Positions 3,748 to 64,000 of a stretch of 64,000 nt of DNA are shown here, one piece after another. The translations under genes and the position numbers were made by a program. How positions within the stretch are numbered: the first letter of the stretch is position 1; every line of letters starts with the position of its first letter. The notes beneath the pieces were generated by a model. The model searched no databases, was not told the origin of the DNA, and worked only from the letters and a program-made list of their open reading frames with translations. Source of the DNA: Amoebophrya sp. A120 (taxonomy: Eukaryota > Protista > Dinoflagellata); assembly GCA_905178155.1 (NCBI GenBank), contig CAJINV010000001.1:7075794-7139793 (forward strand), written 5' to 3'.

Positions 3748-6700
3748 ATGACGTCCTCGTCGTCTTCTACTGAGCCGCCTAAGGTGCTCGTCGTCACGTC
3801 CTTGGATTACTTCGGCGCCGCTATCCTGAGTAAAAACCTACCCACACCAGAGTCAGGATGGGGATTTTGCAACGCAAACCTAGGAGTTCTGTGAGTCACG
3901 CATGACAAGTTGCACTCTGCAGCGTAGTGCAGGTTAGCAAGTGCAGCCGCATCACAGATTCATCTGCTCATCCTGTTCACAGCATCACAAAGTCCAAAAC
4001 ACGATTGGAAATGGCTCTCATGCGGATGCGCATTACAAGTCTTCCTGTCTTTGCAAATCTGCATTACAACTCTGGTGTGGGTACGTTTTTACTCAGGATA
4101 GCCGCGGCTTTGTCAGTATTGAAGAAGAACGCATTCGAGAACGTTCTGTGTGTCGTCTGTGGGGGCAGCAAGGGACTGGATGTCATTGCAGAATGTCAGA
4201 AGCACGGGTAGGATTCTTTTCGAATGACTTGCCATTTGATGAATCCGTTTTCAGTTTTATTGTCAAGGTGGACAACAAGAAACTTTTGCAATGAGTACTA
4301 TTCTGTTGCGTAAATACAAGGTAGCAAGCTCGATTTTCATCCACATACTCAAAATCACAGGTATTCCAACTTCGTGTCTACCGACGCTGCGATGCTCAAA
4401 GCGGTCTGCGAGTCCTTCAAAGCCGACGTATCGATCGGTTTGGGACCGAATCTACCGACAACAAGTCTCTCGCTCACATTCACTTACGCGTCAGAAAGCA
4501 AATTCTCACCGCCAGGCCCCGCCTGGCCGGAGTTCGGCGCCATCGTGAGCGGTGCTACAGAATCGAAAATGACACTGGGCACCGAAACGACCGCTCTTAC
4601 CATCACAACCTCCGACACGGCAATAAGTCTGCGTTACAAGCACATCTCCGCGTTTTCCACCCTTCTACAAAAAGTGGTGGAGCAAGACCTCTCGGTCGGG
4701 GAGAAAACTGCGGCCTTTGACTTCTCCGCTGCGGCAGGAACCCGAGCAGAGGAGGGCTACTTTGTGGACCCCGACACCATGTCACTCGACGAGGCCGACC
4801 GGTTTGTGCGCGCGTGCAATTTACCGCCGTACGAGTGTGCGTTGGTCAAGTCAAAGTTGGACGGATTTGACTACTACGTGGATTCGTGTGACCACTACAT
4901 TCACTACCTGAAATCAATCGGACAGCACTCCGCTTCGAGCTCTTCCAGTGGGCCGAAACTGCTCGGCGACTGCGAAACCACGGCGACGAAACAGTACTCA
5001 GCAGATACGCACTGGTACTCAAATGTGGGCGGAACGATCGTGAAGGTGCAAGCGGAAACCATGAAACTGCGCAAGAGAAACGAAGTCACGCAGCTGATTC
5101 CAGGTACTTTTACGAGGGGTTTGTTATTGTTTATTGGGGGACGAAATGCTTCATCGGACTCGTTCCTTGCTTGTGATTTGTCTTGACCCAACAGACCAAA
5201 TATTTATTCATTTCTATTTCCAAAACAGGTCAAGCCATCGGTGCGCAGGCGAAAAAGCGACTGCGCATGAACGAGCCGTTGATTGGCCTTACCGCAATGG
5301 GCTACATCGAAAAAGCCCTTTCCAGCGGCTGGATCGGCGTAGAGGGCCCGCATATGAAGAAGTTCGAGGCGGCCATCGCACGGATTTGCTCGGTAAGGAG
5401 TTTTTACTGTTGCTAGGTAGCAGCGGCCACGTTGTTTGGAATAAAGCAATGTTTTGATGGCTATGCCGACATGTAAAAGAGGTGAGTCCGCACGTCGAAT
5501 AAAACTTCTGATTTTCATCATAACAGGTCGAAGCAGCCTGTGCGGTGCAGTCCGGAACAGCGGCGCTCTACGGGGCCATGAAAGCGCTCGGAGTCAGCGA
5601 TCAGTTGCACCACGTGATCGTGCCGACGTACACCTGCGCCGCCTGCGCAGACGCGATCGTGCACGCGGGAGGTAACTTTTTCTACCCTTTTCTTTCAGCC
5701 TTCTATACCAAAATGCGTGAGTGTGCAGTCTTTTGCGGACAAGAAGTTGAAGCTTTTTATTCGAGAGACGAATATTTTTTGGAAAATCAAAATGGAACAA
5801 CACAGGTATTCCTGTGGCAGTAGACTGCGAGTTGGACTCTTACGGTCTCTCCTTCGAGGCCGTCCGGGATACCATTTTGAATGACGAAAACATCGTGGGT
5901 GTTGTCATTGCTCCCTGCTACGGGATTCCATCACGCGACCACATGAAAATTCACGAGCTCTGCAAGGAGCAGGGTCTGTGGCTCTGCGAAGACAACTGCG
6001 AGAGTTACGGCGCTGTTATGCAGGTACATTATTTGAGGTTTAGCTTTGGCGGTGGTGAAAGGAGTAGATCCTGAAACACGGGTCGGATGTAACAATTCAG
6101 TATCACCGTATAGATTTTTCAGTATTGCAACCGTGTAGGCTCTTCTTTCATCTTGCTACGGGACCCAAAAAACAGATCGAAGACGACGCTGGGGAGTCCA
6201 AGACGTCCAGTAGCAGCGACACCGTACGCACGGCGAAGGTTGGCTCTATGTCCACCATGTCGGTCGTGTCCGTGCGGTCCGAGAAAATGGTCGGCGTGGG
6301 CGAGGGCGGCGCTATTCTGTCGAACGACGCAGCCTTGGTTTCCAAGGCGCGTTGGTGGTGCAGCCGAGCGCCGGTGCGGGGATGCGGGTTGTGGAGAGTG
6401 TACGAGCACGAGAACATCGGGCAGAACTTCCGGTTGCCGGAGCTGCTCGGTGCAGTCGGGTTGGCAGCTTGCGAGAACTTGCCGGTCATGATTGAGCGGA
6501 AAAGGAACATCCACAAGTGGTACCAGGAACTGCTTTATCAAATCTAAAGATGTCTGGGTCTGGAAGATTGCGAGGCTTGTCATGCTTGTCTGGCATGACC
6601 AAAAAGTTTGTCATGCGTGTCCAAGAAGAGACCCTTTTGCCTGTCATGAAAAAACGCAGTTTGTCATGCGAAAAACGCAACACAAAGAAGCGCAGGTATT

Positions 6701-7316
6701 TCTCATGCTTGGCTGTGCATTACAGAGCATTCACTATTCCCAACGCAGCATTACAAGTTTCCAGACCCCGACACTTTTGCAATGCATATGCTTGGGGACA
6801 TTCCATTCCTCAAATTCCAGCAGAACAAACCGCTGGACGAGCCCGTGTGGTGGCTCAACGCGCTCAGGGTACTGATAAATTTATGCTGTCGCAGCTTCAG
6901 AAAAGCAATGATTTTCTTCGGTATACTTCCTTCAGGTGGCAAATCCTTGAATTTTCCTTTCGGAGTATTGAACAATCGTTTATCCACCTCATTCATCACA
7001 AAAACATCAGATCGAAACCCCGGCCAACGGCAAGCCTTTGGCGGATAAGTTTTGTGGCGCCAAGCCGCAGGCGAATCTCGCTGAAGCCGTCGGCATGCGA
7101 CTGATGAAGCACCACCCGAACATCGAGATCAGGCCGGCGTTCTTCCCGCTCCACAAGATGAGCTGCTTCAGCGAACATGCGAGAACTTGCCCGAACGCGG
7201 ACATCGTCTACGAGAGATTACTTTGCGTGCCCTCCAGCGCGCAGCTGACGCGCGAGGACATTGAAGAAGTGTGCGCCGCGCTGCGAGACAGTCTACAAGA
7301 AATCGTAGTGGGCTGA
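3748..7316 (+). CDS. Fusion of a formyltransferase-like domain and a DegT/DnrJ/EryC1/StrS (perosamine synthase-like) PLP aminotransferase, ~734 aa. Exons 3748-3830, 4097-4207, 4361-5103, 5229-5392, 5527-5671, 5806-6023, 6176-6535, 6794-6868, 7011-7316
   Basis: The joined exons total 2205 nt, in frame. The C-terminal half has DegT hallmarks: SGWIGVEGP..FE, VQSGTAAL, VIVPTYTC.AC, LCEDNCES, SVRSEKMVGVGEGGAI (PLP lysine), GQNFRL, VWW, EIRPAFFPLH, LCVPSS. The N-terminal half resembles formyltransferases (GPAWPEFGAIVSGATESKMT; SLDEADRFVRACNLPPYECA). Two of the introns are non-canonical introners. Confidence 0.85.
3831..4096. mobile_element. Introner 1 (MITE-like non-canonical intron, 266 nt removed including one direct repeat)
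   Basis: TIR TAAAAACCTACCCACACCAGAGT (3831-3853) vs ACTCTGGTGTGGGTACGTTTTTA (4069-4091), 22/23 complementary. Flanking repeats CTGAG (3826-3830) and CTCAG (4092-4096). Removal gives ...AAIL-R-IAAAL in frame. Confidence 0.88.
6536..6793. mobile_element. Introner 2 (non-canonical intron, 258 nt)
   Basis: Direct repeat TGCTT at 6531-6535 and 6789-6793. Imperfect TIR TATCAAATCTAAAGATGTCTGGGTCTGGAA / TTCCAGACCCCGACACTTTTGCAATGCATA. Contains an in-frame stop. Removal restores the DegT-like WYQELL-GDIPFLKFQ. Confidence 0.88.
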
Positions 7317-8867
7317 AATGAGTAGATTTTGAAGCAAATAAAGGAAAAGAAACAAAAGGAAAAGAAACAATGTTTTTGGTTTAGAAATCTACCCCCAAAG
7401 AGTTCTTGTTGTAAAGTACGCAAATGTAAAGTCACAGACGCAGGTAGAAGAAATAATGTGAGAAAAGTCCCATGTGCTTTGACGTTTTGGAGCCGATTAC
7501 CGAGGTAAAATGCTTTTTTTGGTTAAGTAATTATCTTCCTCTGTGATCAAGTTGTGAAAACCCAAAGCAGGAACTGCTGCTAAGGAAAAACACAGACAGA
7601 GTCACAGAATTTATTTGCTAGGTAGAGCCTAGCGGAGCCCGGCACTTCCTGGCTGAAGTGGCGAAGGTTCGTCTTATTCGGAATTTTACACTATCAAATG
7701 ACCACAATTCATCCTCCTGGACCTGGTACAGTAGAGTAGCAGATTGAGTGGAAAAGCAACGACAGGACAAAATACTTTCGGATTTACAGTTCTTGATTGT
7801 CTTTAGTTCTTCGCGGGAGTTTTAGGGTGAAAACCTGCGCTACCTCCCGGAAGGTAGTTTCAACGCGGTCTCCCAGATCGGTAATTGGAAGAATCACAAC
7901 GGCAATATTCGTTTTTGATGGTTCTTTTTGCATGCAAGAGACAATGCCCTTTCAACCGCAAGACAAGGCTGCAAATAATTTTGTCTTCAACAATCAAAGC
8001 ATAAGATACCCAGCAGAGAATTCCACGGGAGTGGGACGCGTTCGCGTGTGCGAAACCTCCCCGCGCAGACATCGTTTGTTTTCGACTTAGCATGCTGACA
8101 TCGCCTTCACCGTAGCGGTAAAGAAAATAGAGAAAAATACACCTCGTGTGGGTCGTGTGACAGAAGCGTGAGTGACGTATTCTGAGGTTTTCGGTAACAT
8201 GCCGTCGAAAGATTTGACTGCAATCGTCTAGGTATATGAGGCGACACGCCATACTGGTACCTGCCTTGTAGCATTACCAGGCAATCCAGTTTCGGTCTTG
8301 AACTACGAGAATCGGTGGAGAAATTACGTATTGAGCGTCTTTGGGTCGTGGGAAGAGAGAGCCGTAATGAGAGATTTGCCTACTATACCTTTGTGTTTTA
8401 CCCTCGTATCTCATACATAACTCATCCGCACAGGACCCTCATCAAACACTTTTGCATGCCATCGTCGCAATTTTTGCGTTTATGCAGTTCAAGAGCTAAG
8501 ACATAGATACCCTTTATCAATCACGGTGCATGATTGTCGCGCTAACATACGAAAAGTTTGTTGCGCATACTCTTCTACCCAACCACTGCAATCGTTGAAT
8601 ACCCACGACCCCAATCGTTTACTACTCGTCCACACGCTTTTGTGATTTTGCCACAATTCGACCAACACCTATTTTACAATTCAGCAGGTTACGTTTTTGT
8701 AATTCAAGATTTTTTAAGAGCGCCACCGCCACGAGAAAATAGGGACGGCGTAGGATCACCGAATCGCTTGGCATAGAAGAATCCTCCACTTGTGTGCGGA
8801 AGCATAGGTGGAGCGATGGGTTTGTGGCAGCTTCCGTGTGACCACTCGTCGGGCCTCACAGTGGTGG

Positions 8868-11800
8868 ATGCGTAAGATCTCGCTCGCCCTTCTTGGGCTC
8901 ACCGCCCTCGAAACCAAGGGGCAGTCCTCGAGCTCGTCCAGCCGGCGAGCGCAGGAGGAGGCGGGGCAGCCTGGAACGTCGTCACATGGGAAAAAGGACG
9001 AGCAGGAGGATGCGGCGAACGGCAGATCTGGCGGGTCGTCCTCTGCGTCGTCGCACGCCGGAGAACAAGAACACGACCAGCACCAAGCACAACACCCTTA
9101 CAAACTTTTAGCCGATCACAAGGATGTTCCCGGCCGGGAAGATCGCGGTCTGTCGACCGCCCGGTTCCGGCGAGCCGCCCGGCGGCTCCGGGAGGATGAC
9201 GCGCGCGCCGGGAAAGAGGAGTCGTCAATACACACGGGTATAAGTGGGGAGGAAGCGAAAAACGCCCAGGATGTTGAGAGAACGTTGTACCAGGAGCACG
9301 AAGAACAGATCGACCCCTCCATTTTTTACGACGACAACGGCAACCTGCTGGAAGAGTCCGAGATTCGCCGGCGTCTCGCCACTCAGCCGTTCGAAAAGGA
9401 CTGGAACTGGCTCTCCGGGACGACGGCGCGAATCGGTACCGGTAGTTACGTGGCGTCCGGCTCGAGCATTTTCCTGAAAGCGACGACGGACATGTCGCTG
9501 GTGAACCGCGTGGACGTGAAAATGTCCACGGGAAACTACTTTTCCACCTCCAAACCGAACCCCACGATGAAGTTCATCGCCGGCACCGCCACGGCACGGA
9601 CGCAGTGCGTGAACGGCGCCAACGGGCGGAACGTCGTGCTGGGGTCTGTGGACACCAGCAACAACCCTTCCTTCGGTTCGGAGACCCATCCCTTGCCCTG
9701 CACCCTGAAAGACACCCCCGCGCAGCCGACCCGCGCCACCAACGAAGATACGGCGATCAACAACAAAATCTCCTTCATGCACGGCGGTACCTACCGACTC
9801 TGCTTCGCGCCGGACGGAAACTTCGGGACGCGGACGGACGACGTGACCAGTTACTGGCTGACTAACCCGGTCGTAGTGGAAGGGGTGTCCTCGACTTGTG
9901 CGACGCAGAACTGCTTAAAAGCAGAGCCATGGTACTGCTGGTCCGCGGGGCACGGAGAGTACGTGCAGGGTGCCGGTAACGTCAACCAGTACGTAGAATG
10001 CCAGATTTCCTTTGTTGTGGGAAACAAGCGAGCCGGGTGGGATCTGATGATGCTATCCGGTGCGACCTCGAAAATGACCTGGACCCAGCTGTTTGCCGGG
10101 GAAACCTACCACTCGGGGAACGGCACTGTTGACACGGTACTACTGCAATATTGTTTCTGTTTATGTTTTCCAGTTGAAAGTTCATTCTTGTGGGAATAGG
10201 TTATTGTATTTTGCATGTAAAATACTAAACTTTCCTCAAGAACGTCGGGTAGCTGCATGGTATTTTAGATTGAGCAACGCAACCCCTATCGCGCATAAAC
10301 GATGAAAAACGAAAAACATAAACACCAAAACAGCCCGCCACGGAACGCGCCTGCGCCTCCGGCGACCCAGAGGGTGGCATTTGGGACTACACCAGCATGG
10401 GAGGCTTCACTAATAACGGTTTCCTCGACGTCACTTCCAGCATTATTGGAAAGATGCCCCGCGTCGGCCACAACCGGTTTGGGAGTTACACCGTGCGTCT
10501 TTGCTACTGCCCGAACTACAAAGCCAACAACGCCGCGGCAAGCAACTGCGGGCTGCAGAACGACTACATCCAGTCTTTCGGGATCCTCTACATCTGGCGC
10601 ATGAACATTTGCGACAGTGGCAACGCGGAAACCAACGACGGGGCGGACTGCCGCGACGCGCCTTACTTCAGAGTGTTACCGCACATCCGGTTTGTGCCCC
10701 AACTCTCCTGCCCCATGGGAGGTGGCTGCCACGCGAACAGCTTTAACAGGATAGCCTTCGTCGACATCGCGCCAACGAACGACCGCAACTTCTGGGACAG
10801 CAACGCAGGGTGTGCGACCACCGGGCAGACGGAAAGCACCAAAGCGGTGTGGCCCGCCGCCGGGATGACCAGAACGCTCAGCGGCGGTTCGAGGCAGGAC
10901 TACAAGGCCTGGGCCACGTCTCTGCCGCGGTTGGATATTGCAACCAACGAGAAGCTCGATGTTTGCTACTGCAACGGGGCTACTGTCAGCGATTGCAACG
11001 TACTCTTACTCTTCTTTTTGATGTTTTGATTTCTCTGAGGGATATGGCTTCTTTCACTATCTTTGTTTGGTGCTACAACGAACAGCAGCACAGCTCCCCG
11101 TGAGCATGAATTTCTTTGCACGTAAGATAAGCAGTAGAAATGAAAAAACTTTCCGCACCCACAGACACCATCCAACTGGTTCCGGATTGGGCACGTCGTC
11201 GGCGGTCATTTCAACCTGGCTTTCAAGGGTGACAGCACCGGCAGTGGCACCGCTGCAGAGTCCATGTCCCTCATCCAAGTGGTCGGGAAGCAGGGCATGC
11301 TGGGTTTCGTCGGTGGTTACAAGACCGCGCCCTTCATCACGAGTACGAGTCAGGCAGCGACGTCCGAGGCAAACGCAAACCGGTATGTGTCCCGCGGGGA
11401 CGGGCCGCGGTATAGTGACATCGCGATTGTGAAGCTGATGAGTTACGACACCATCGGGATGATCAGCTACCAGGGAACGATGCGGACCATCGAGGCGTAC
11501 TACAGTTACGACAAGACCACGCCGAGCGACAAGAGCACGAAGCTGGATACCCACTGCCAGTCAAGCAGTTACTCCACAGACTTGGTAACGGGACCGGGCA
11601 CCTCCGCAACCGCGCAGACCTACCACGCGGTCGCGAACGCCACGGATGAGAATGAAGCTTCCGCGTATTTCAGTTTTACCGGTGCGAACAAAGACCTCCA
11701 GATGACGGTAAAGAAGGCTGGCACCATTGCGATTTGCTTTTGCGGGATCGTTAACGAGGCTGCGTCGCCCTGGAACTGCAACAAGAACTGGCGGTTTGCC

Positions 11801-14800
11801 GGGTTGCTCATGATCGCCGGGCCTCTGGGGACACAGACGTGGAATCTGCCCACAAAACTGGTATTGATGGTTTTTTTTTTCTTCTCCGTTTATTCATTTA
11901 AGGCTCGCGATTGAATTTTGAGTACCGAAGAAAGCTATTGCATGCCTGCATCTTCTGTCCAATATATTACAAAAACCTTCTGACCAGGTTTCGAAGCTCA
12001 CCGTTCGCGGCGCGGGCATGACTGCCGGCGATATTCTCCGTCTGGTCCCACAGGGCACCACTTGCGCCGGCAACGTGGCGCCCTCGCCAACGTATAAAAC
12101 CGGCTGCCCCAGCGTTGAGGGGACCGGCTGTATTACGGGAACCAATTGCCCAAACACAGCGGACGGGACGAGTTGCCGCGTCGCGGGCATGACGGGCATC
12201 AACGGCGGTTTGGGATCGTACCTCTCGCTGCAAAACATGCGCAAGAGCAACATGTCGCCCGCCACGGGGATTTACCGGGTGCGCGCGGACTACTCCACAA
12301 ACACCATGACGGTGTTGGAGTTCAATCAGGTGATCCAGGGCCGCGGACTGGAGAACGGTGACACGATCATTATCGACAAGGCGGACATCAAGTTTGTCAC
12401 CGACACCGCTTACACGTTCGCGCAGTGGAAGAGCAACTCGCGGATGCGGGAAGCGGCGGATGTTTTCACGAATGACTACGCCTTCATGGACAAGTCCGAC
12501 GCCACGAACTACGGCACCGCCACCAACGCGATGGGGTGGAAAATCACCTTTTTCGACCACACCGGCATCGCTGCCACCGATAAGGGAAAGTTCATTTCCA
12601 TCCCGCTACCGTGGTCGGGTGAGTTCGGCGTCGTCAGCGCTAACATCCGCTACCCGTTCGTGATAGAGTTCGCGGGCGGTTCGGGCGGCTGGAGCCGCAC
12701 GAACGTGATCCGCACGAACACGGAGATCAAGGGCATCGAGCAAACCGGGGATATCTCGGGACCCCTGAACGTGTGCTGGGGGCGGCTGAACTCGGGCACG
12801 CCCGAGTTCTACCAGTCCGCGGGCGAGGTGTCGTTCTTCCACCCCAACAACATGACCAGCGCCATGCTGTCCTTGACGAGTTCCGCGGAGTCGGTGACTG
12901 CGCCGGCGATCATCACGTTCCAAACCTCCGGGCTGCGAACGGAATACGCCACGTACTCTGTCGGGAAGAGCTATCACACAGAAAAAAGCTGGCAGGGCAT
13001 CTATTTGTAATGCAAAAATAAATACGCAAAAGATCGGCATTGCAAGTCCAAAACAGTATGCTATGGGGCCACCCATGACAAATTTTTGTGTGTTTTCATT
13101 TTTGCATTACAAATATGCCCTGCCAGCTTTTTTCTCTGGGATAAGAGCCACAAGCTGGTGCTGCGGTTCCTCGACACAATTAAGTTCGAGGCGTACCGCA
13201 ACTCGGAGCTGCCCAGTCACACCTCGGCCATCGCGGCGCTCGCCGGCAGCACGTTTGTTTACGAGGCGGACGCGAAGCAGAGCGTGTGCGGGCAGCTGTT
13301 CGTGGAGCTGTGGTCGTCGGATTCCGAGGGCTTTCCGTTCCCCAAGGGCTGCTACTACTCCGGCAAGTACACGGATCTGGAGGAGGGCGGCGGCGAGACC
13401 ACGTGGAGGGAATTCACCATCATCTTCGAGAAGAGCAGTGGCATCAAGCACATGTATATAGCGTCTTTGGATTTATTTTTGTTTCATCTCTTGACACAGC
13501 AACGCCAACGCATGTCCATGTCCATCTGCATCCCCACTCTGTAGTGTAATCTGTATGCATAGTTTTCGTGGAGTTCGAGTTTAGTAGTAGCGAGCCAAGC
13601 AATAGCAACATGAGCATTCAAAAATCAACAGCTGTCACGACGACTCGGGCGCTGCGATTGCCTGCGAATACCAGATGGTAATCTACGGGCAGCCCAAGCC
13701 CTCGCTGGTGCAAGGCGGCAACTACGTCGATATCTACACCAAGTGTGATGGATGTGCGACTGACGGCAGCGATATCATCTTCGAGTCAGGTAAGTGGAGG
13801 TCATGGACCATCTATTTTTTTCTCTCTGTCTTCCGATTTGAAGGAGCGTTATTTTATCGCGAGTTTAATCATGCAGTTGCGGGCTGGATAGCTGAGTGCA
13901 TATATCAAAAACAACAGGTGCCACGGTTCTGAACGTGGATGCGCCCCTCGTGGGCGGTGTTCCCTCCACGCAGCCGCAGGCCGGAAACAGTGACCCGGGT
14001 ATCGAGGAGTTCAAGGTGATCTACGACAGTGGTGCCGCCTTTCGCGACCTGGGTGTCGGCGGCCGGTACGCGACGTTTGACGTCCGCATGGTCGCAAAAT
14101 CCGTGCCCCGAGCGATCAAATCCGAGAACGTCATCCGGTTCTACCTCATGCCGTTGTTGCAGTGGTCCCTGTCCGCGACGACGTCCACCGTCAGGTGTAT
14201 GGACCACTTTTCCGGTTTGATCAGTTACAAGTGCGGCGCCATCGGGTCAGACGCGAACCCGACCCTTTCCGCAACGAATGTAGCCTTGGCCCCGCAAACG
14301 CAGAACCAGATCGACAAGAATCAGAACGCCCGGAGAAACAGTATCAAAATCGTGATGCCGGCGAACATGAAGGACTTCGTCACGGATCAGACCACGCACA
14401 TTTTGAAGTTCGTCGGGCTGGAAACCCCGAAATCCGGCTTCTTCAACAAGCGGTGGGGGATTCAACTGTCCAAGAAGGACGACACGGCGCCATCCTGGTC
14501 CTGGACGAACGGGTTTTTTTTGAAAGAGCCGGATGTCGGCCAGAGCAGCGGCCGGGTCGTGATTAACGGGCAGACGGGCTACGGTCCGAAGCCCTTCAAA
14601 GGGGAGTCGGGGAATATGGTGTACGTGCGGATGCAGTTGGGCGCGACGATCTGGAACAACGGAAAGCCGGATGCAGGGACGTTCACCTTGAAACTCCCCG
14701 CCGCGAGTGGGAAGGCCTACACTTGTTCCGTCGAGCAGGCCGCGGGAATGCGACGGGGCGAGGTGCCCACAGACTTACCCCCGTTCTACGATTTTGACCA

Positions 14801-17800
14801 GGACGGGTACCTGGATGCGAACTTCGGTGTTCTCGGAACCCACACCACCGAGGGGTACTGGGCGGCGCAATCCGGGCCGGATTGCGATTACTTCCTGAAC
14901 AGTTACCAAACGATCCACGCCGGACAGGTGTTCTACATCGCTTTGACGGTCAAGAACCCGGACAATGCCATGACCAAGGACGACCCGTCCAACGAGTGGA
15001 GAATAAAGATGCGCAGCAAGGGGGTAGGTGGCGACTCCGCCGTGGATATGCCCAACACCGGTGGGTACTCGTTCTTAACCACGGGAGAGAATTCCGTGAA
15101 CACCCCCGGAAGGCCGAAGCTGTGGTACAAAAACCTCGGCGTTTTAGACGAGATCTCGCAGCCGGTGCTGCAGCCTTTGTCGCTAATGGCGGGGACGGTT
15201 GCGGCGCCCCGGGAGACGCAGCTTTACGTGTTCTTCCAGACGATGTCGTTCATCGGGCGCATGGGCTTCGTGAAGCTGGACGCCCCGTGTGGGTACGACT
15301 TCGGCTCCGCCTGCAAGGTCGCGTCCCTTCCACCATTCTACTACGATTTCGCGGATGTTTCGGTCACCCCAACGAGGAACTTCACGCGGATTGAGAACTG
15401 TCAGGGCAAGAACCTCGTAGATTTCTGCGGCACGACCACGACGAAGTTCAACCGCGCGAGGATTATGGTTGGGGACAACATTGTGAAGGAGGCGAAGTAC
15501 GGGTTTCAAATCACGGTGACGGTGGGCACGGAGTACGTCCAGTCTACGCAAAACCAGTGGAAGCTGTTTTTGTCCGACAATCGCGATTACGCGATCGACG
15601 GTGTGAAAGACACCCTGAATCTGTTGCGAAATACTTTGGAATCCACCGATGTGGACTATGCAGCGCAGACAGATCGGGCGTTTGGTTTGTTCAAGTCCGA
15701 CTTTGGGCAGATGCCGCTGTCCATCACGATGAACTCCATGTTCCCCACCTCGTTGGCGGGAAATTTCGGGACCATGTTCACGTTCGACGGGCTCGTCACC
15801 GAAACGGCGATTGCAACCACACTGAGGTAGTGACTTCATAAATTGACCGATTCGTGGTTGCGTAAGTGTCAAACCATTTTTCAATTTGAAATGTTCGGGC
15901 ATTTATTTTGTGCCTAAACCTCTTAGCGACTTTTGATTTTGTGCAGCCTCAGAAATTCATTACCCCCTCGCAACAGGATCGTCGCTCCACCCGGTTTCAA
16001 GTTCAATGGTAAGCCAGCAGGGTTGGTGGACACTTTCATCGGGTTCCCGGACGGCACCGCAAACCGCGCGCTGTGGAAGTGCGACGCGCCACCGCTGATC
16101 AAGGACACGATGAGGAATCAGCTGCGGTTCTTCAACTGCCAGTTCGCGGCGAACGTGATGTACGGGTTCTCTCTCGAGGTCGAAGTCCCGGACTACAGTC
16201 CGTCTGACGCGACCAACACATTCATCGTCGAGATGGGGTTCCAGGGTACGGATATCACCGGTTCCGGTACCTCCACGCGGTTGCATGCAAAGATGATTGA
16301 CGCGCCGATGGTGAAAGCGGTTCGGAACACGCTCGTGGACTACAGTTCCAACCGAGCGCAGGACACGCAGAAGATGACCATCGACATGCGGCTGGTCACG
16401 GCGTTGACAACCTTGGACGACGGTATCGTGATTGTGGGCGACCAAAACGGGAACAACCAGTTCCAGTTCACCTGCTACTCGGAGACGTTTCCGTTCGAGG
16501 GGTATTTGCGGTTCCCGACCGACTACGGGTGTCAGTTCGCGAACCAGCGGTACACGCTGTACCGGAAGGACCAGGACTTTCCGGCCGGGTACTACAAGTG
16601 GCAGGTGATCGTCGCAAACCCGCTTTCCGCGATCCCGTCGCCGGGGAGCTGGCAGTTTGGCACCTACCATCAGTCGCACAACGGTGGGTACCCAAACAAC
16701 AAGATGGACAAGCCGGTTTTGACGTTGGGCTTCCCGACGAGGGACATGATGCCGGACGCGAAGCTCGTGCAATTCTCCTCGTCGGCAAAGCAGCAGCAAG
16801 TGAACGCAGCGACGAACCGGGACGACAGACCGGGTTACAAAACCAAACCGACGGTCAACTACCTGATCTTCCAATTCACGCTGAAGGACCGACCAGAATC
16901 CGAGGACAAGATCATCTTGCGGGGGCCGAAGGGCTTTGAAATTGCGGATGACTGCACTTCCGGCGTCGTCACGGACGAGAACGAGGTTTTCGGGCCGAAT
17001 TCGGCCGCAACCTGGGACCCGCAGTTCACCAAGTGGGCATCCGCGTATGCCCCGACCAAGTGCGAGGCCGAGGGCAACAGGGCAAACATCACCGTGCCGG
17101 TGGGGCTGGATGCGTCGTCGACCTATGTCTTCAAGTACTTTATTGCGATTGTAGTTGATCACTTTGATTTATGATTTCCCGGTAGCTGCGTCATAGAGCT
17201 GCAAGCACTAGAGATTGATGATTTCCTTTTGTGCTGTTCTACTTCATCTGGATGAAAGATTTTCCACAGCGTTGCAAACCCCTGCCCATATGATATCTTT
17301 CAGGTTGCAAATCCAGAATAATCCGAGCACCACTCCGGACCCGAACTACTGGACGTTAGAGTACAACGGCGAGTCATCTGTGCCCTTCGAGGGCTTCACC
17401 CTCATGACCGCCACCGGCGTTACCATCACACCGGTGTCTTTGTCCGTCCGATCGTCCGATTCTACGAACGTGTTCGTGAACCCAGTGGAATTCTCTTTCG
17501 TGCCCTTCCAGAATGTCCCGGCGAGAGCCGAAAACGACGCGTTCGGCGGTATGGTCCGCGTGCTCGCGCCCCCGGGGTACGAGTATGTCCCACTTGCAAA
17601 CACCAACAGCCGGCGGTTGGAATCGAAGTGCAACGAGGAGCTTGCGCTCCCCGACGTGCTAGAGGCGGACATGGAGGACCTGACACAAAACCGCATCTCT
17701 TCTCGCGGCGAACGCTACATGAACTGCCGGGACGCGGAACTGGCGGAACTGATGGAAAGGCAGGACAACGAGGCGGATGCGGAACGAAGAAGGCTGCAAT

Positions 17801-20800
17801 CCACCTGCCAGGTGGATCTCCGCACGGCGGACGGAACGCTCCGGTTCGTGTCCGGGACCGACGTGATTTGCGACATCACTGGGACGTTGAACGTCGGGAT
17901 GTACCTGTCGGCGAAGATCAAGAGTTCCACCAAGTCAATCATTGCCGGCACGGCGTACAAGATGACGGTCTATCTGTACAACCGGGTGTCCATCGCGTAT
18001 AGTGACAACGGTGGGGTGTTTGAGGTAGAAACGTTTCAAGACGCGGAGGCGAAGACCGCGTTGGACTTGACGCAAGTGCCCGGCTTCCCGACGGTGCCGC
18101 TGATGTACGAGTGGACGGTGCAAAACCCCGAGCAACAGTACATGGGGACGGAACCGGTGAGGAACGTTCTTCTGACGCTTCGTATGCCAGACGCGCTGTA
18201 CGACGGGGACGAGATCTGGATCCTGGCGCCACAAGGGTTTGTGCTGTCTGTCGGTACCACCGGGGCGTGCAACAACTTTCGCTGGGAGGGCGGTACCAGC
18301 CCGCTGCCGGCGTCGCACACCCGGGTCTGCGAGTGCAACGCCGCGTGGACCACGAACGGCGTGCCGCGGTGCGGAATGACCATGGTGATGAACGGGTATC
18401 CTGTGCAAAAGTATCGTTACTCGTATTGCAATCATGCATTACAAATCTGGAGAGACTTAGGCGCCACTTTTTAAGCAGCATCCAGCCCAAGAGACCACAG
18501 GACGAGAGTCCTGCAAGACCGGGCGACAAAAGTAAGAAAACAAAATCAAAAAAGATGGTATAAACGCGCTCTGCTTAACTGTATGAAAGGTGTCGGCCCT
18601 GTGTAACCTGCTGCGGCAGGCAGGTGAATTCGTAGAACTGCATCACATGTTAGGCAACGTCCACCGGCCTCCTAGCTTAGTGATGAATTTATATGCGTAA
18701 ATCGAGTTTCCTGATCGGACCTATGCGGCACGCACATCGAGTTTCCTGGCAGTGTCGACCTGCTGTACACGGCGTAACCCCCGCGAATCACGAGCGGAAT
18801 GCGCACATCCGAATCCGAATCCGTAAACAGAGCGGGGCCCAATGAAAAAAAAAAAAATCATGCATTGCAAATCTTTTTCTTAAGCTAAATCCGCACTACA
18901 AATTTTATCTCTCATGCTGAGAAAATTTGTAATGCATTTATACGAGTTGTGCGATACTTTTGCAGTTCATAACGGGTTGGGTTTGACGACGATTTCCACC
19001 GCTTTCAACGCGTTGAAGTTCCGAATCGACACGGCAAACCCGTCGAAGGTTGTGTCCGAAATCGGGAACTACTGGAAGTGCTCGCACATGAAAAACAAGG
19101 GGAACGTTCTGGTAAACGGGGTGGCACAATTATGACACGATTACAGTGGCGTTTTTGTTGATGCTTTATCGACGAGACCATTGATGCTGAAGAGATGATG
19201 GGCAAGTAAATTAGGTAGTGGGAATGAGTAGGCATGATTTATTGCCCTTGAAAAAATCAAGAAAACAGAAGCACATACTTGAAAATGAAAAATCATGCCA
19301 ACCAAAAACTACAAACTCAATGGAGACAAAACACCAACAATCACGCCCATTTTAAGGCGTCACAACAGACGCAGTACGAAGTAAAATCAGAGCACGCGTT
19401 CCGTTCTTGGACGGTGAAGCCGCAGCTGCAGAATGTTGGGATCTCGATCCACAACATGCAGCGCATGGCGGCGGAAGCGTACACAGACCTTATGTTTATC
19501 TTCCTGGCGGTGAACAACGCAGTTACGGTGAAGATTGAGGCCATGCAGCCCGCCGACTTCAAGTTCGACGCGGCGGTGGTGGAGGGGTTCCAAATAGACG
19601 GAGCGACGGGGAACAACGTGCTTGTCGTCAACAATGCAGACATCTCGAGCGGGCAAACAAAGCAGATTTTGGTGAAAAACGTGAAGCTCGGTGTGCAAGG
19701 TGGCCCAACGGTGTTCAACCTGCGCACCTTTGATCGCGCATTGCTCGGTATAAAGTAAGTTTTGTTGAAGAATAACGAGATGATCGTGCCATGCTAACTA
19801 CAACTAGAATGAAGTTTAGGTCATACCAGAAGATCTCGATTTCACTATCACTTTTGAGCTCGATACTCAAACAACTCAGGTGGCGAGATGCAAGACTCGT
19901 CGGATCTCCAGGACGAGAAGCTGTCCGCCCTCGGTTTCCGCATGCCCGGTCTGTTGTCCGTAACCCCAGGGAGCATGAGATTAGAATCCGACTTTTTGAT
20001 GAACCCGTCTGCCCACCCGGTAGAGTCCATGTTCCCCGCGAGAGAACAGGAGTTAAACACCGCGGTGATGGTGTTCACGGTGTCACAAACCGTATTCGCG
20101 CAGAGTCTCATGCTCGTCACCTGCGAGGGCCAAGACAGGTGAGAAAATGTTTGTCAAGAGGTGGCCACTTTTTTTACGATGGACGCATGTGGTGCATGGT
20201 GAAGAAAACATAAGCAACATCACTCATCAGGGGATATGGATAACATCTGTGTGACTTGAAAAATACAAAACCGAAACCAGGTACACCCTCGAAGCCAATG
20301 GCTTTTCCCTCACTGGAACTGGTAGCATCGAAATCGACGTCGTGCTGAACGCTGTCACCGGCGCGCTGGAAGTTCAGCTGAAGCCCACCGGGGCAAACAC
20401 GGTTTCTGTGCTCGTCCCCGGCGCCAAGTACACCATGCGGTTCCGCACTACCCCGAAGATCGGGCAGAGCAATTGGCGGATTGTGACGTACCAATCCAGA
20501 AGTAGCTTCCAACTGGGTGAGTTGCCGACTAACACGAACGACGGGCTGACCCCCCCGTTCGCGCCGGTGTACACCTTGGGTTTCTCGATCAATCTGATCG
20601 AATCCGCGGCAGGCGTGCCCCGATCACCACCGCAAGCGGAAATCGAGATCTCGTTGAACATCCAAACGAACGGAGCGAGCGTTATGGAGGTAAATTTGAG
20701 ATTATGATGTTTACTTGTTAGTCACGCAGCGGCCGAAGGCATGGTCTTTCTAAAGTTTTTTTTCACAACGTTCTTGTTTTGTTTGTTCTCTAAAGCCGAA

Positions 20801-22381
20801 AAACGAAAACCAAACCCTCAGGTCATCGTGATTGCCCCCGAGGGTTTCGATTTCCCATCCACCTGTGGCGCCACGTGCACGAAATACAACAACGTCGGTG
20901 TGGAAAATAGGAGATCGGTGCGACTGCGCAGCCCGCAGGCGAACGTGCCGCTGTACCAGCAGGACTTAAACAACGTGGTGATTCGAACGATCACTCCCTC
21001 ACTAACGCCGGCACAGAGGAATTGGTATGTACAAACCAGGTCTGGCAGCATGATCGCGGGCGGCATGCAGATCACGGGCTGGGGCAGGACGCAAAACGGG
21101 TTTGAAATCAAGCAGATGGCAAACACGAAACTGTGGTACCCGAGCAGGCGAGCGTTGCAGGGAACGCATTTCGCGTTCACGTTTACACTGGGCGTGAACA
21201 ACGGGCAGAGAATAGAAGTACTTACCTAGCTCTAGGCTGTTGGTGTCGTTTTTGTTTTGAAATTCTGGCCATGACTGTGTTTGTGTGCCCGAAGAGCTGC
21301 TCCATTGGTGCCACGCGATGGCAACCCAGCAAAAACCAAACAGGTCAATCCTCCGATTCTCTATGAGCTGTACTGCAGTACGATGCCCCAGACCGGTCTC
21401 CCAGCGTTATTGCCAATCTCGCTTCCCGGCGACCCCCCGACTTGCATCGACTCCCCGTTGACACTAATTCTTGCTTCCCCCCTCTACGCTGGCACCTACA
21501 GTTTTATGATTGGTGGCGACGTGCCGGCCCAGACACCACCTGTGGGACAGACGCAGTACTTCAGCTTGGTGATCAAGGACAACCTGGGAAAAGTTCTGGA
21601 CGCCGCGTACGATATCCCAGCGGTGAACCCACTGCAGGAAATCCCCGCGGTACGGGCCCACCTCACTTGGCAGGGCGCACCGGCAAGGCTACGGACTGTG
21701 GTCGTCACAATCGGGATCACGTTCGACATGGCAGCAAGAAACGTGGAAGGATTCTTGATCACGTTCCCACCAGGGCTGAGACACGACATCCAAACCAGCA
21801 CGGACGTGAAGAACTTGAACAAAGGTATAAAGTGGTTTGTTTGTTTTGGCGTTTTTTTTTTCACGATAGCAGGGAGTAGCTAAGAAGTTTCATGCGCAGC
21901 CGTTTTGCTTTCAATGAGAATTTATAAAAACAGTTCTTCAATCTCGATCAACCAAAATCACACCACAGCCTTCCCTGTTGCGCCTGCCACTTCCTGGGTA
22001 GACCACGGGAACGACATGTACCTCCGTATTCTGGTCGACCAGAGCGGCAACGTTGTGGCGACCATTCCCGCGGGGACCTACGAGTTCGAGTTTCCGATCC
22101 TCTTCCCGGCCGAGGTCCCGCCAGAAAACATCTGGTACTTCTCGTTGTGCGCGAACCGGCAGTGCAACAGCATCATAGAACAGTCCACGACCGTCATCCC
22201 CATGACCTTTCCCATTGGTGGGTTTCGGGAGGGCGAGGTGTCCATGAACGCGCAACGGACCAGCAGCGCCAGCGGGAGGTGGTCGAAGGTGGGAAGCTCG
22301 GTGTTCGCGACCCTGTTCCTCACGTTCTTCTTGTTTGCGGGCGGTTTTTTCGGCGTCGCAGCCGCTGAGAGACGTGGCTGA
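8868..22381 (+). CDS. Giant secreted/membrane-anchored Cys-containing, beta-rich protein (paralog A), ~3,570 aa, 16 exons: 8868-10136, 10334-10999, 11165-11860, 11988-12971, 13149-13453, 13632-13789, 13918-15826, 15977-17134, 17304-18396, 18977-19111/19120, 19369-19747, 19880-20138, 20281-20689, 20822-21217, 21344-21824, 21969-22381
   Basis: Signal-peptide-like start MRKISLALLGLTALETKG. Phase-compatible GT-AG junctions plus two introners. Recurrent P.GF/NP....N.W modules. Hydrophobic C-terminus VFATLFLTFFLFAGGFFGV. Colinear similarity with the gene at 57214 onward (e.g. FMHGG.Y..C.APDG.F, CYCP/CYCG, EGFP.PKGCYYS, PKLWY.N.GV). Confidence 0.85.
12972..13148. mobile_element. Introner 3 (non-canonical intron, 177 nt)
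   Basis: ~55-60 bp TIR (TATCACACAGAAAAAAGCTGGCAGGGCATCTATTTGTAATGCAAAAAT... / ...ATTTTTGCATTACAAATATGCCCTGCCAGCTTTTTTCTCTGGGATA). Direct repeat AGAGC at 12967-12971 and 13144-13148. Removal gives YSVGKS-HKLVLRF, which aligns without a gap to YSIGYQHQITLRF in paralog B. Confidence 0.93.
18397..18976. mobile_element. Introner 4 (non-canonical intron, 580 nt, carrying a nested insertion)
   Basis: Direct repeat ACGGG at 18392-18396 and 18972-18976. Imperfect ~50-bp TIR TATCCTGTGCAAAAGTATCG..TACTCGTAT..ATGCATTACAAAT / ATTTGTAATGCAT..ATACGAGT..CGATACTTTTGCAGTTCATA. Removal restores the frame MVMNG-LGLTTIS. Confidence 0.85.
18430..18874 (+). mobile_element. Possible poly(A)-tailed retro-insertion nested in introner 4
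   Basis: 19-bp direct repeats AATCATGCATTACAAATCT (18430-18448) and AATCATGCATTGCAAATCT (18856-18874), 18/19 identical. They flank ~400 nt that ends in an A13 run (18845-18857). Confidence 0.5.
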
Positions 22382-63200: not shown

Positions 63201-63776
63201 GCGACGCTCTTCCACAACGGCCAGACCGATGCGGCGTATTTGGAGATCAAGGCGCCGTCCGGCACGAACAAGAAGTACCAGGGACGGTGCGAGCAAACCG
63301 CGCCGGCGCCGTCGAACATCCCAAATTTCTTTGACTTCGACCGCGATGGGTACATTGACTACAATCACGGGACACTGGGCACGAGTACGAACGAGGGGAA
63401 GTGGGGTTTCGGCGAGGCTTTGAACTTTTGCAAGTACACACTGTACCCAAACCAAGCGATCTACGCCGGGATGAGCATCTACGTGAAGTTGATCATGGAC
63501 AACCCGACGGAGGCGATGACGAAGCACGACGTGGACAACGTGTGGGGCATCAGGATGGTGTCGCGCGGCGTCGCTGGTACGCCAAGCACGGCCAGACCGA
63601 TGGGAAATCCGAACATCTACCCGTTCAACCCGGCTTACACAAATAACGTGTTGACCGCCGAGGCCACCTACCAGCGCCCCAACGAGCCCAAGCTGTGGTA
63701 CCAGAATGTCGGGGTTGTGTCGCCTCTGGAGCAGCCGGTCTTATCGCCGACGCACTTCAGGCTGTCGACTTCTCTC
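57214..63776 (+). CDS. Giant secreted protein (paralog B), 5' part; the gene continues beyond the window. Exons 57214-58990, 59161-60606, 60755-61039, 61193-62020, 62167-63776
   Basis: Phase-compatible GT-AG junctions. Colinear with paralog A, e.g. YKIGCPSVEGTGCIT vs YKTGCPSVEGTGCIT, NSRMREVA.VFTN, VCWGRL, QLGAT...NG..DA, DFD.DGY.D.N.G.LGT.T.EG.W. Confidence 0.85.
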
Positions 63777-64000
63777 TATCAAAAGGAAAAATCCCTCCTC
63801 CCCATATCGAAACGAAATTTCTGATGCTGGATTTGGATACACAAATCAGATTTGTGTTGCAGAAAGGCATTGCGGCCAGATCCCCAGGCTAGGTGGGGGC
63901 GTATGGGTCTAGTTGCTCAGCATGGCAAACGGCCCCCCTTTAGGCCCAACAGCATGACAAATCGCCTCCATAATATGGCGGAAGCTTCTGCCCTTGTCTT
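63777..64000. mobile_element. Probable left end of a fifth introner (truncated by the window edge)
   Basis: Similarity to paralog A stops here and no GT donor lies at this point. The sequence starts TATCAAA like introner 2 (introners 3 and 4 start TATC) and contains GCATGACAA (63952-63960). Confidence 0.55.

What the first reader, a model, noticed from the sequence alone, without database searches (positions are those of the whole stretch)
3826..18976. One introner family with a shared grammar: TA...TA ends, 5-bp target duplication and a GCAT[T/C/G]ACAA motif
Seen: four introns with otherwise dissimilar TIR sequences all begin TA (three TATC), end TA (three ATA) and are flanked by 5-bp direct repeats. 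All carry several copies of GCAT[TCG]ACAA or its complement: 3900, 3982, 4030, 4061; 6577, 6608, 6661, 6748; 13005, 13104; 18436, 18927; also 63952. Removing the element plus one repeat restores the frame each time, and no GT-AG or GC-AG register exists. Established: Amoebophrya has many non-canonical IR/DR introners whose excision mechanism is unresolved. Inference: the 9-mer is a binding site for a transposase or a splicing factor, and the junction is defined by the hairpin plus direct repeat rather than by consensus dinucleotides.
Basis: partly seen in the sequence, partly recalled or inferred. Interest (0 to 1): 0.78.

Follow-up and report, generated by a model that had tools for sequence, protein, structure and literature searches.

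The report
Amoebophrya hairpin introners share transposase-type motif
These inserts are copies of the already published transposon-like introns of the plankton parasite Amoebophrya, missing to the base from the messenger RNA although they lack normal splice signals, and they share a nine-letter motif that lies in either orientation and so is likely a DNA binding site for the enzyme that moves them rather than a splicing signal.

Summary
Observation confirmed. Four elements (3822-4100, 6536-6788, 12972-13143, 18397-18971) and a fifth cut by the window end (from 63777) start TATC, end ATA, and have 5-bp duplications. All 13 GCAT[TCG]ACAA hits lie inside them (1.7 expected). Transcript contigs lack exactly element plus one repeat at all four sites. 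No exact register is GT-AG or GC-AG, and nearby in-frame canonical pairs are not the assembled form. They are the Amoebophrya A120-type introners of Farhat 2021 (TAT-N7-AAA ends); '5-bp TSD, TA/TA termini' is noted in Gozashti 2025. They form at least five sequence families, not one. Not found in print: the 9-mer. In 235 elements from a close relative it occurs in every family, often as 31-33-bp doublets, and is blind to gene orientation (246 sense, 243 antisense). That argues against a strand-specific splicing signal and for a subterminal transposase site. No transposase was found. Target sites look random, so the symmetric ends probably carry the excision signal. A remodelled spliceosome is slightly favoured over a nuclease-ligase route; this is untested.

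The parts
3817..3821 (.). E1 left target duplication GCCGC (right copy 4101-4105)
3822..4100 (+). Element E1, 279 bp, about 30-bp TIR, 9-mers at 3900, 3982, 4030, 4061 all on one strand; in the first coding exon of gene 1
   Evidence: RNA joint 3816->4101 skips 284 = 279+5 in X6 and X8; 95-97% identical full-length copies in the metagenome loci; RNA fold z -9.06
6531..6535 (.). E2 left target duplication TGCTT (right copy 6789-6793)
6536..6788 (+). Element E2, 253 bp, imperfect TIR, 9-mers at 6577, 6608, 6661 (minus) and 6748 (plus); directly after the exon that carries the DegT/DnrJ aminotransferase match
   Evidence: RNA joint 6530->6789 skips 258 = 253+5 in X6 (79 letters on the short side) and X8 (23 letters only); Pfam PF01041 on 6176-6532; fold z -1.28
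12967..12971 (.). E3 left target duplication AGAGC (right copy 13144-13148)
12972..13143 (+). Element E3, 172 bp, near-palindromic, 9-mers at 13005 (minus) and 13104 (plus); in gene 2
   Evidence: RNA joint 12965->13143 skips 177 = 172+5 in X3 and X6, none in DNA-like X1; fold z -10.04; paralog at 61138-62020 aligns without a gap across the site
18392..18396 (.). E4 left target duplication ACGGG (right copy 18972-18976)
18397..18971 (+). Element E4, 575 bp: a member of the about 150-bp family carrying a nested insert; 9-mers at 18436 (plus) and 18927 (minus); in gene 2
   Evidence: RNA joint 18390->18971 skips 580 = 575+5 in X3, X6 and X8, none in X1; alignment to a 163-bp relative
18449..18855 (+). 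Nested poly(A)-tailed insert inside E4; its flanking near-perfect 19-bp direct repeats start at 18430 and 18856, 426 bp apart (likely retroposed)
   Evidence: no Rfam match
63772..64000 (+). Element E5 (repeat CTCTC 63772-63776; element from 63777, cut by the window end), about 320-bp family, 9-mer at 63952 with a one-mismatch copy 32 bp before it; interrupts the paralog of gene 2
   Evidence: not covered by any read lay
3748..7317 (+). Host gene 1, 728 aa, C-terminal DegT/DnrJ/EryC1/StrS aminotransferase domain; 6 GT-AG introns plus E1 and E2 in the coding part
8432..22381 (+). Host gene 2, large protein without a Pfam match in the ORFs scanned; holds E3, E4 and several GT-AG introns (3' end read from the sequence; RNA was laid only to 19400)

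Best explanation
These are non-autonomous terminal-inverted-repeat DNA transposons (MITE-like introners of the Amoebophrya A120 kind) that sit in coding exons and are missing, together with one copy of their 5-bp duplication, from the transcripts; the GCAT[TCG]ACAA 9-mer is likely a subterminal DNA binding site of the transposase, and removal from RNA is likely directed by the symmetric ends through a remodelled spliceosome. Steps. (1) Shown: repeated elements, TAT-N7-AAA ends, 5-bp duplication of an apparently random target (confidence 0.97). (2) Shown for four elements: exact absence from transcript contigs while present in DNA contigs. (3) Shown, on strands inferred from a codon model: the 9-mer has fixed places and polarity inside each family but no polarity relative to the gene. 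Inferred: it is read as double-stranded DNA (0.85), most likely by an integrase-type DDE transposase of the IS3EU/Ginger neighbourhood that is not encoded in the elements (0.65-0.7). (4) Inferred: because both orientations are tolerated and the target is random, the signal for RNA removal must lie in what both orientations share, the TIR: a stem from about position 11 inward plus the terminal UAU..AUA. (5) Weakly inferred (0.5): a U1-independent spliceosome makes the cuts, reading the element's first UA as +2/+3 of this organism's GUA donor (cut one base inside the 5' repeat) and placing the 3' cut by distance.
For: RNA joints equal to element+5 at all four sites in contigs of run X6; X3 shows the two in gene 2; X8, an environmental RNA run of another study, shows three (E1, E4, and E2 with 23 letters on one side); 0 joined contigs in DNA-like X1 at E3 and E4. 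235 elements in 49 loci of a relative (Prp18 93% identical to the A120 protein). Where 4-8 bp was allowed, the longest repeat was 5 bp in 48 of the 52 rows visible for L050-L060; with 5 bp presupposed, 188 of 235 are perfect and none extends to 6-9 bp. Removing element plus one repeat keeps the frame in 80 of 81 elements with both flanks assignable (127 of 208 unclear); 46 of the 80 would shift the frame if kept. 9-mer relative to gene: 246 sense, 243 antisense in 212 elements; 170:170 in 143 with a local strand call; 86:90 in the 80 frame-checked, 19 of which have no exact sense copy. The E1 family has 130:1 internal polarity yet lies 20 with and 15 against the gene. 177 of 195 elements not matched by the search pattern carry an exact copy. 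A 30-33-bp doublet (one mismatch allowed) is in 156 of 221 elements and in all 5 families; motif columns are better kept than other interior columns in all 5 (0.81-0.95 against 0.65-0.83). 0 of 13 RNA-confirmed GT-AG introns carry an exact copy, 1 has a one-mismatch copy. Strand calls agree with Pfam hits in 9 of 10 loci, 1 uncalled. For step 5: 13 of 13 canonical introns start GTA; the 5' TA is intact in 230 of 230 while position 3 departs 12 times at the 5' end and 2 times at the 3' end (p 0.012 uncorrected); Farhat's Table S4 lists NT-xx borders as commonest in A120 and TT-xx in A25, whose elements start TTA; U1 was not found in A25/A120 but was in a strain with canonical introns.
Against: No transposase found: 0 transposase or integrase families in the 150 longest of 270 ORFs of the loci or in 20 window ORFs; Farhat found no transposase in A120. 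Binding is untested, and a host DNA-binding protein would look the same. 251 of 767 motif hits in the loci fell outside called elements; they cluster and 71 unpaired ends exist, but I did not resolve them one by one. 15 of 212 elements have no exact 9-mer. The largest family leans 52:32 to one orientation (p 0.038, one of five tests). Against a spliceosome: no excess of GT-AG registers (6 of 171 against 7.8), no excess of G before the element (80 of 230, against 77 after it), and in-frame canonical pairs are bypassed. The position-3 asymmetry does not survive correction for 16 positions. The register test on imperfect repeats faded from 8 against 0 to 9 against 2 (p 0.065) and 4 against 1. RNA support is from assembled contigs, which drop minor forms; splicing of antisense copies is inferred from frames, not seen.
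Confidence: 0.55

Rival explanations
1. Same transposons and same DNA-level 9-mer, but RNA removal is spliceosome-independent: an endonuclease cuts on either side of the TIR stem and a ligase (RTCB-like) joins the exons, as in SOS splicing or as proposed for euglenid nonconventional introns.
For: Random target, no GT or AG preference, both orientations tolerated; 5' and 3' end logos nearly identical; A11-13 pair in register with the 3' T run in 194 of 206 predicted folds; SOS splicing is triggered by TIR pairing and is independent of the spliceosome (PMC12779559); euglenid introns with TIR and TSD leave as full-length circles (review PMC11282704).
Against: SOS splicing cuts at many sites and leaves indels, whereas one exact joint is assembled at each of the four sites here. 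Terminal TAT and A11-13 are kept at 0.95-1.0 identity, so sequence may matter, though transposition alone could keep them. E2 has a weak hairpin with unpaired ends and is still removed exactly; the terminal 3 bp are not predicted to pair in 42 of 206.
Confidence: 0.3
2. The 9-mer is a splicing signal (branch site, since its core reads U-n-A-C, or a site for a single-strand RNA-binding factor).
For: In the window, E1, E2 and E3 each have a sense copy ending 32-33 nt before the 3' end; the core fits the loose yUnAy branch consensus at four of five places (consensus recalled, no call).
Against: No strand bias in 212 elements; 100 of 212 have no exact sense copy in their last 80 nt and 61 have none at all; the polar E1 family lies both ways; canonical introns lack it.
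Confidence: 0.07
3. The joints are reverse-transcriptase template switches across a hairpin between direct repeats, or the elements are excised from DNA.
For: Hairpin plus direct repeat is the classic substrate of template switching (own knowledge), and all RNA data here are cDNA based.
Against: Each element has an in-frame stop 9-75 nt inside; the whole-gene contigs lack the elements at the depth of the flanking exons; the weak hairpin E2 is skipped too; DNA-like X1 holds element ends joined to unique flanks at depth 40-43 and has no joined form at E3 or E4.
Confidence: 0.05
4. The 9-mer is bound by a host DNA-binding protein (chromatin or transcription factor) or is a relic of a 31-bp tandem unit, with no role in transposition.
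For: No transposase found; orientation-blindness fits any double-strand binder.
Against: 0 copies in 62,497 window bases outside elements; kept at set distances from the ends and better than neighbouring columns in five families that do not align in their interiors.
Confidence: 0.15

Closest known systems
Introner elements (IEs) of Amoebophrya sp. A120 (Farhat et al. 2021, PMC7789003; seen: abstract, passages, sections 11, 12, 16, supplement part 3 and legends)
   Same: IR starting TAT + 7 variable + at least three A; direct repeats of 3-5 nt (Fig. S19 legend: 5 bp); non-canonical borders; about 240 nt mean length; tens of thousands of copies.
   Different: In the parts read, no internal motif, no orientation test and no single 5-bp rule are given; the paper splits them into 1,954 families and argues against general transposase-mediated movement. 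Figures could not be seen.
A120 introner family 38 and other TIR families (Gozashti et al. 2025, PMC12130899; seen: passages, supplement file 8 parts 15-17, searches of files 1 and 3 and of all 14 files)
   Same: [quoted passage not shown]
   Different: Other families are left 'Unknown' with automated TSD calls of 2-6 bp; no 9-mer in the rows or passages seen.
IS3EU/GingerRoot DNA transposons (Kojima and Bao 2023 by recall of authors; PMC10045372; seen: passages)
   Same: TA..TA termini; integrase-type DDE enzyme fits the fam38 homology.
   Different: Their duplications are usually 6 bp; here 5 bp. No transposase in hand.
Ginger1 / Ginger2-Tdd (PMC2836005; seen: passages)
   Same: TDD-4/5 make 5-bp duplications; integrase-like enzyme.
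   Different: Termini TGTNR, not TAT.
SOS splicing (PMC12779559; seen: abstract, passages)
   Same: DNA transposon removed from mRNA, TIR-dependent, not GU-AG.
   Different: Imprecise, leaves indels, rescues only sometimes; here one exact joint per site.
Euglenid nonconventional introns and Polarella ILEs (review PMC11282704 passages; bioRxiv 10.1101/2020.10.14.339549 passages)
   Same: TIR hairpin and TSD at non-canonical borders (euglenids); insertion in both orientations (some Polarella classes).
   Different: Polarella classes recruit G[ACT] and AG from a constrained TSD; here the TSD is unconstrained. Euglenid ends have another consensus.

Membership tests
Amoebophrya A120-type introner elements | IR begins TAT, seven variable bases, then three or more A | tested here: met
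   4 of 4 window elements and E5's left end; logo of 470 ends: T at 3 in 0.97, A at 12-13 in 0.98-0.99; positions 1, 2 and 11 were fixed by the finder
Amoebophrya A120-type introner elements | Direct repeat of 3-5 nt at the borders | tested here: met
   5 bp in 4 of 4; 188 of 235 perfect
Amoebophrya A120-type introner elements | Removed from mRNA at non GT-AG borders | tested here: met
   4 of 4 joints; no canonical register
Amoebophrya A120-type introner elements | Repeated across the genome | tested here: met
   summed contig depth 4e5-7e5 at element ends against about 42 in unique DNA in X1 (not a copy number); many copies in the relative
Amoebophrya A120-type introner elements | Sequence match to a published family | not testable with these tools
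   family sequences are not in the text or tables seen; no whole genome held
MITE / non-autonomous TIR transposon | TIR, fixed-length TSD, short, no transposase gene, many copies | tested here: met
MITE / non-autonomous TIR transposon | Autonomous partner with the same ends | tested here: inconclusive
   none in 323 kb of loci or in the window; too little of the genome was searched
IS3EU/GingerRoot | TA..TA termini | tested here: met
IS3EU/GingerRoot | 6-bp target duplication | tested here: not met
   0 of 235 extend to 6 bp; 0 of 52 visible rows had 6 where it was allowed
IS3EU/GingerRoot | IS3/IS481-like DDE transposase | not testable with these tools
   no transposase sequence in hand
Ginger1/Ginger2 | TGTNR termini | tested here: not met
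   termini are TAT
hAT | 8-bp target duplication | tested here: not met
   8 bp per PMC3517528; here 5. A 5-bp hAT5 subgroup and hAT subterminal repeats are recalled only; the paper read names hAT5_DR without a TSD length
U2-type spliceosomal intron | GT/GC donor and AG acceptor | tested here: not met
   0 of 4 in the window; GT-AG possible in 6 of 171, chance 7.8
U2-type spliceosomal intron | Lariat intermediate, spliceosome dependence | not testable with these tools
   the raw RNA reads laid (X13, X14) did not cover the elements' junctions
SOS splicing substrate | Excision at many sites leaving indels | tested here: inconclusive
   one exact joint per site in contigs, but contigs drop minor forms
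SOS splicing substrate | Dependence on AKAP17A, CAAP1, RTCB | not tested
   no genome held to look for the genes

The most novel reading that the evidence does not exclude
Amoebophrya has an exact, orientation-blind RNA excision machine, not the standard spliceosome, that recognises the symmetric ends of one transposon lineage and restores the target to the base. That lineage, published as nearly 2,000 families, is moved by a single unidentified integrase-type transposase (TA..TA ends, 5-bp duplication) whose footprint is the GCAT[TCG]ACAA doublet spaced three helical turns apart.
Probability: 0.3. Interest if true: 0.85.

Novelty: already known. Interest (0 to 1): 0.42.

Why it matters
The elements and their unexplained splicing are published. 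What this adds is a separation of their two grammars. The 9-mer doublet appears to belong to the DNA (mobility) side and gives a bait for finding the missing transposase and a marker that unites many published families. The RNA side must work from the symmetric ends alone, on a random target and in either orientation. That narrows the open question of how about 60% of this parasite's introns are removed to two testable routes, and it gives gene finders a simple rule: delete TAT-N7-AAA..TTT-N7-ATA plus one 5-bp repeat.

Tried and rejected
Whole genome not held; the loci's records are not searchable by handle. Exact 32-mer of the E1 end in metagenome contigs: 0. Viral contigs: a 16-mer gave 10 hits taken as chance and not examined; two longer patterns gave 0. 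Prokaryote genomes: 0. Locus L049 (26% GC, other assembly) was dropped as a chance hit before all counts; L001-L010 were not used; duplicate elements from overlapping loci were counted once; L060 was left out of the ORF list. One false call of the first finder in the window (5870-6158, spans a canonical intron) and 1 and 0 calls in two shuffles show a small false rate. Raw RNA reads X13 and X14: 1 and 526 laid, none across an element junction, so junction heterogeneity, lariats and circles were not seen. Branch-point reading of the 9-mer: rejected by orientation. Cut register from imperfect repeats: inconclusive. Left-right compensation at TIR positions 4-10: 4.81 matches of 7 against 4.68 in within-family shuffles (p 0.012), too small and confounded by subfamilies to show selection on pairing. 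End pairing of canonical introns: -11.7 against -10.2 +/- 4.0 kcal/mol for crossed pairs, no signal. Transposase hunt: Pfam on 150 of 270 locus ORFs and 20 window ORFs, none; a 62-aa part of the ORF in the 644-bp element L050:2566-3209 had no homologue, the Atlas gave no answer, and the representative search was still queued at submission. Rfam on E4: 0. Literature: six searches; the motif-string search found 38 papers, and the 15 listed are unrelated by title. PMC13326754 has no passage on Amoebophrya, MITEs or hairpins. Figures (Farhat Fig. 3, S19-S25; Gozashti S8-S9) could not be seen and may show the motif.

Full report
Observation. Four complete elements are bounded by 5-bp direct repeats: E1 3822-4100 (GCCGC), E2 6536-6788 (TGCTT), E3 12972-13143 (AGAGC), E4 18397-18971 (ACGGG). 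All four start TATC and end ATA, and all eight ends fit TAT-N7-AAA. The thirteenth 9-mer lies in a fifth element that starts at 63777 and is cut by the window end. Outside the five elements there is no copy in 62,497 bases. The four elements align with each other only in short patches, so they share a grammar, not a family.

Removal from RNA. Contigs of run X6 (RNA by guess; they also lack all 13 GT-AG introns listed) join 3816 to 4101, 6530 to 6789, 12965 to 13143 and 18390 to 18971; X3 shows the last two. Each skip equals the element plus 5. An environmental RNA run of another study (X8) shows the joints at E1 and E4, and at E2 with only 23 letters on one side. With these joints gene 1 reads as 728 open codons with a DegT-type aminotransferase domain. 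A paralog of gene 2 in the window aligns without a gap across the E3 site. None of the 6-8 equivalent registers is canonical. In-frame GT/GC..AG pairs do exist near the ends of all four, including GTAAAA at 3830 with AG at 4101 in E1, and are not the assembled form. Raw RNA reads did not cover the junctions, so minor forms are unseen.

More copies. A pattern for the right-end grammar found 50 loci in metagenome contigs, 49 from one assembly; the fiftieth was dropped as an AT-rich chance hit. A Prp18 protein in these loci is 93% identical to the Amoebophrya sp. A120 protein, and E1 has 95-97% identical copies there. From 323 kb I called 235 elements (268 in the union with a second finder). Where repeats of 4-8 bp were allowed, 48 of the 52 visible rows had 5. 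With 5 presupposed, 188 of 235 are perfect and none extends to 6 bp or more. They cluster into five main families of median length 151, 211, 262, 279 and 321 bp, plus small groups. Host strand was called with a codon model trained on the window and agreed with Pfam hits in 9 of 10 loci. Removing element plus one repeat kept the frame in 80 of 81 cases with both flanks assignable; 127 were unclear. Target repeats show no strong base preference, and a GT-AG register is possible in 6 of 171, against 7.8 +/- 2.8 with shuffled flanks.

The 9-mer. It is in 177 of 195 elements that the search pattern did not select, and with one mismatch in 239 of 239. It sits at set distances from the ends, and a 30-33-bp doublet (three helical turns) occurs in all five families, in 156 of 221 elements; other spacings (18-20, 39, 48-49, 85) are family-specific and not all in phase. 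Its columns are better kept than other interior columns in every family. The main test is orientation: 246 sense against 243 antisense copies, 170 against 170 with local strand calls, 86 against 90 in frame-checked exons. The E1 family, whose copies point one way inside the element (130:1), lies 20 times with and 15 times against the gene. 61 of 212 elements have no exact sense copy. A branch site or single-strand RNA signal cannot behave so, and in the E1 family the copies cannot pair with each other. A double-stranded DNA site near transposon ends is most simply a subterminal transposase site, as known for hAT and CACTA elements (recalled, no call). Against this: no transposase was found, a third of motif hits in the loci lay outside called elements and were not resolved, and one family leans 52:32.

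How the RNA cut is set. Both orientations and any target are tolerated, so the signal should be the symmetric TIR. A11-13 are predicted to pair in register with the 3' T run in 194 of 206 elements and the terminal 3 bp in 164 of 206; E2 has unpaired ends and folds like its shuffles, yet is removed exactly. A stem plus terminal sequence or a ruler therefore fits better than a perfect hairpin. Hints for a remodelled spliceosome: all 13 confirmed canonical introns start GTA and end A-rich without a pyrimidine tract; the elements' 5' TA never departs while position 3 departs 12 times at the 5' end and twice at the 3' end (not significant after correction); the published commonest borders are NT-xx in A120 and TT-xx in A25, putting UA at +2/+3 in both (this may be an aligner effect); U1 was not found in those strains but was in a strain with canonical introns. 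Against it: no preference for G or AG, and the register test on imperfect repeats was inconclusive. I give about 0.5 to a modified spliceosome and 0.3 to a nuclease-ligase route like SOS splicing, which is TIR-triggered but imprecise.

Comparison with print. Farhat et al. 2021 describe A120 introners with IR starting TAT, seven variable bases and three or more A, direct repeats of 3-5 nt, 29,850 copies in 1,954 families, and an unknown mechanism. Gozashti et al. 2025 note '5-bp TSD, TA/TA Termini' and a Ginger-like label for A120 family 38, while saying it lacks Ginger termini. By termini the nearest superfamily is IS3EU/GingerRoot (TA..TA, but 6-bp duplications); Ginger has TGT ends and hAT 8-bp duplications. 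None is met in full. I found no mention of the 9-mer in six searches or in the text and tables read; figures were not visible.

Verdict. Real, and a known system. The added value is the motif, its orientation-blindness and the random target, which split the mobility grammar from the splicing grammar and make both testable. Interest 0.42.

Noticed in passing
window 18449-18855: Poly(A)-tailed insert inside E4, with near-perfect 19-bp direct repeats 426 bp apart; looks like a retroposed piece nested in an introner, which is still removed exactly. Lower repeat depth than the element ends; no Rfam match.
   Followed up: partly
window canonical introns, e.g. 4208-4360, 5104-5228, 10137-10333: 13 of 13 RNA-confirmed GT-AG introns start GTA, are 125-197 nt long, T-rich at the 5' side and A-rich before the AG, without a pyrimidine tract.
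   Followed up: partly
L025:535-813, L057:5793-6071 and others against window 3822-4100: E1 copies are 95-97% identical in a relative whose Prp18 is 93% identical to the A120 protein; recent activity on both sides or exchange between close strains, although the elements were published as strain-specific. The window's own distance to that relative was not measured.
   Followed up: no
loci L011-L060: Insertion phase is skewed 45/21/14 among 80 frame-checked elements (chi-square p 5e-5) although the target repeat looks random; unexplained.
   Followed up: partly
window 6776-6785 (minus strand) and many loci ends: One common end type, TATGCATTGCAAAA, holds a one-mismatch 9-mer at positions 4-12; in family 1 the next copy starts 30-31 bp further in, so the terminal site may be part of a doublet.
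   Followed up: no
window 23908-37916, 48930-51881: Very long ORFs with AAA+ domains and an RZ-type zinc finger (RNF213-like by recall); no element was called between 18971 and 63777, so introner density is very uneven.
   Followed up: no
window 61138-63824 against 11922-15830: A paralog of gene 2 lacks E3 at the matching site and has E5 at a site where gene 2 has none.
   Followed up: yes
L059:9747-10584, L033:1606-2094, L015:571-1051, L050:2566-3209: Longer elements carry nested inserts, one a GC-rich palindrome; the 644-bp element has a 103-aa ORF, a 62-aa part of which has no homologue.
   Followed up: partly
window 7310-7500: Run X14 has many reads starting at 7310 with a template-switch adapter, right at the stop of gene 1, and almost none upstream; possibly a 3'-end fragment or a separate short transcript.
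   Followed up: no
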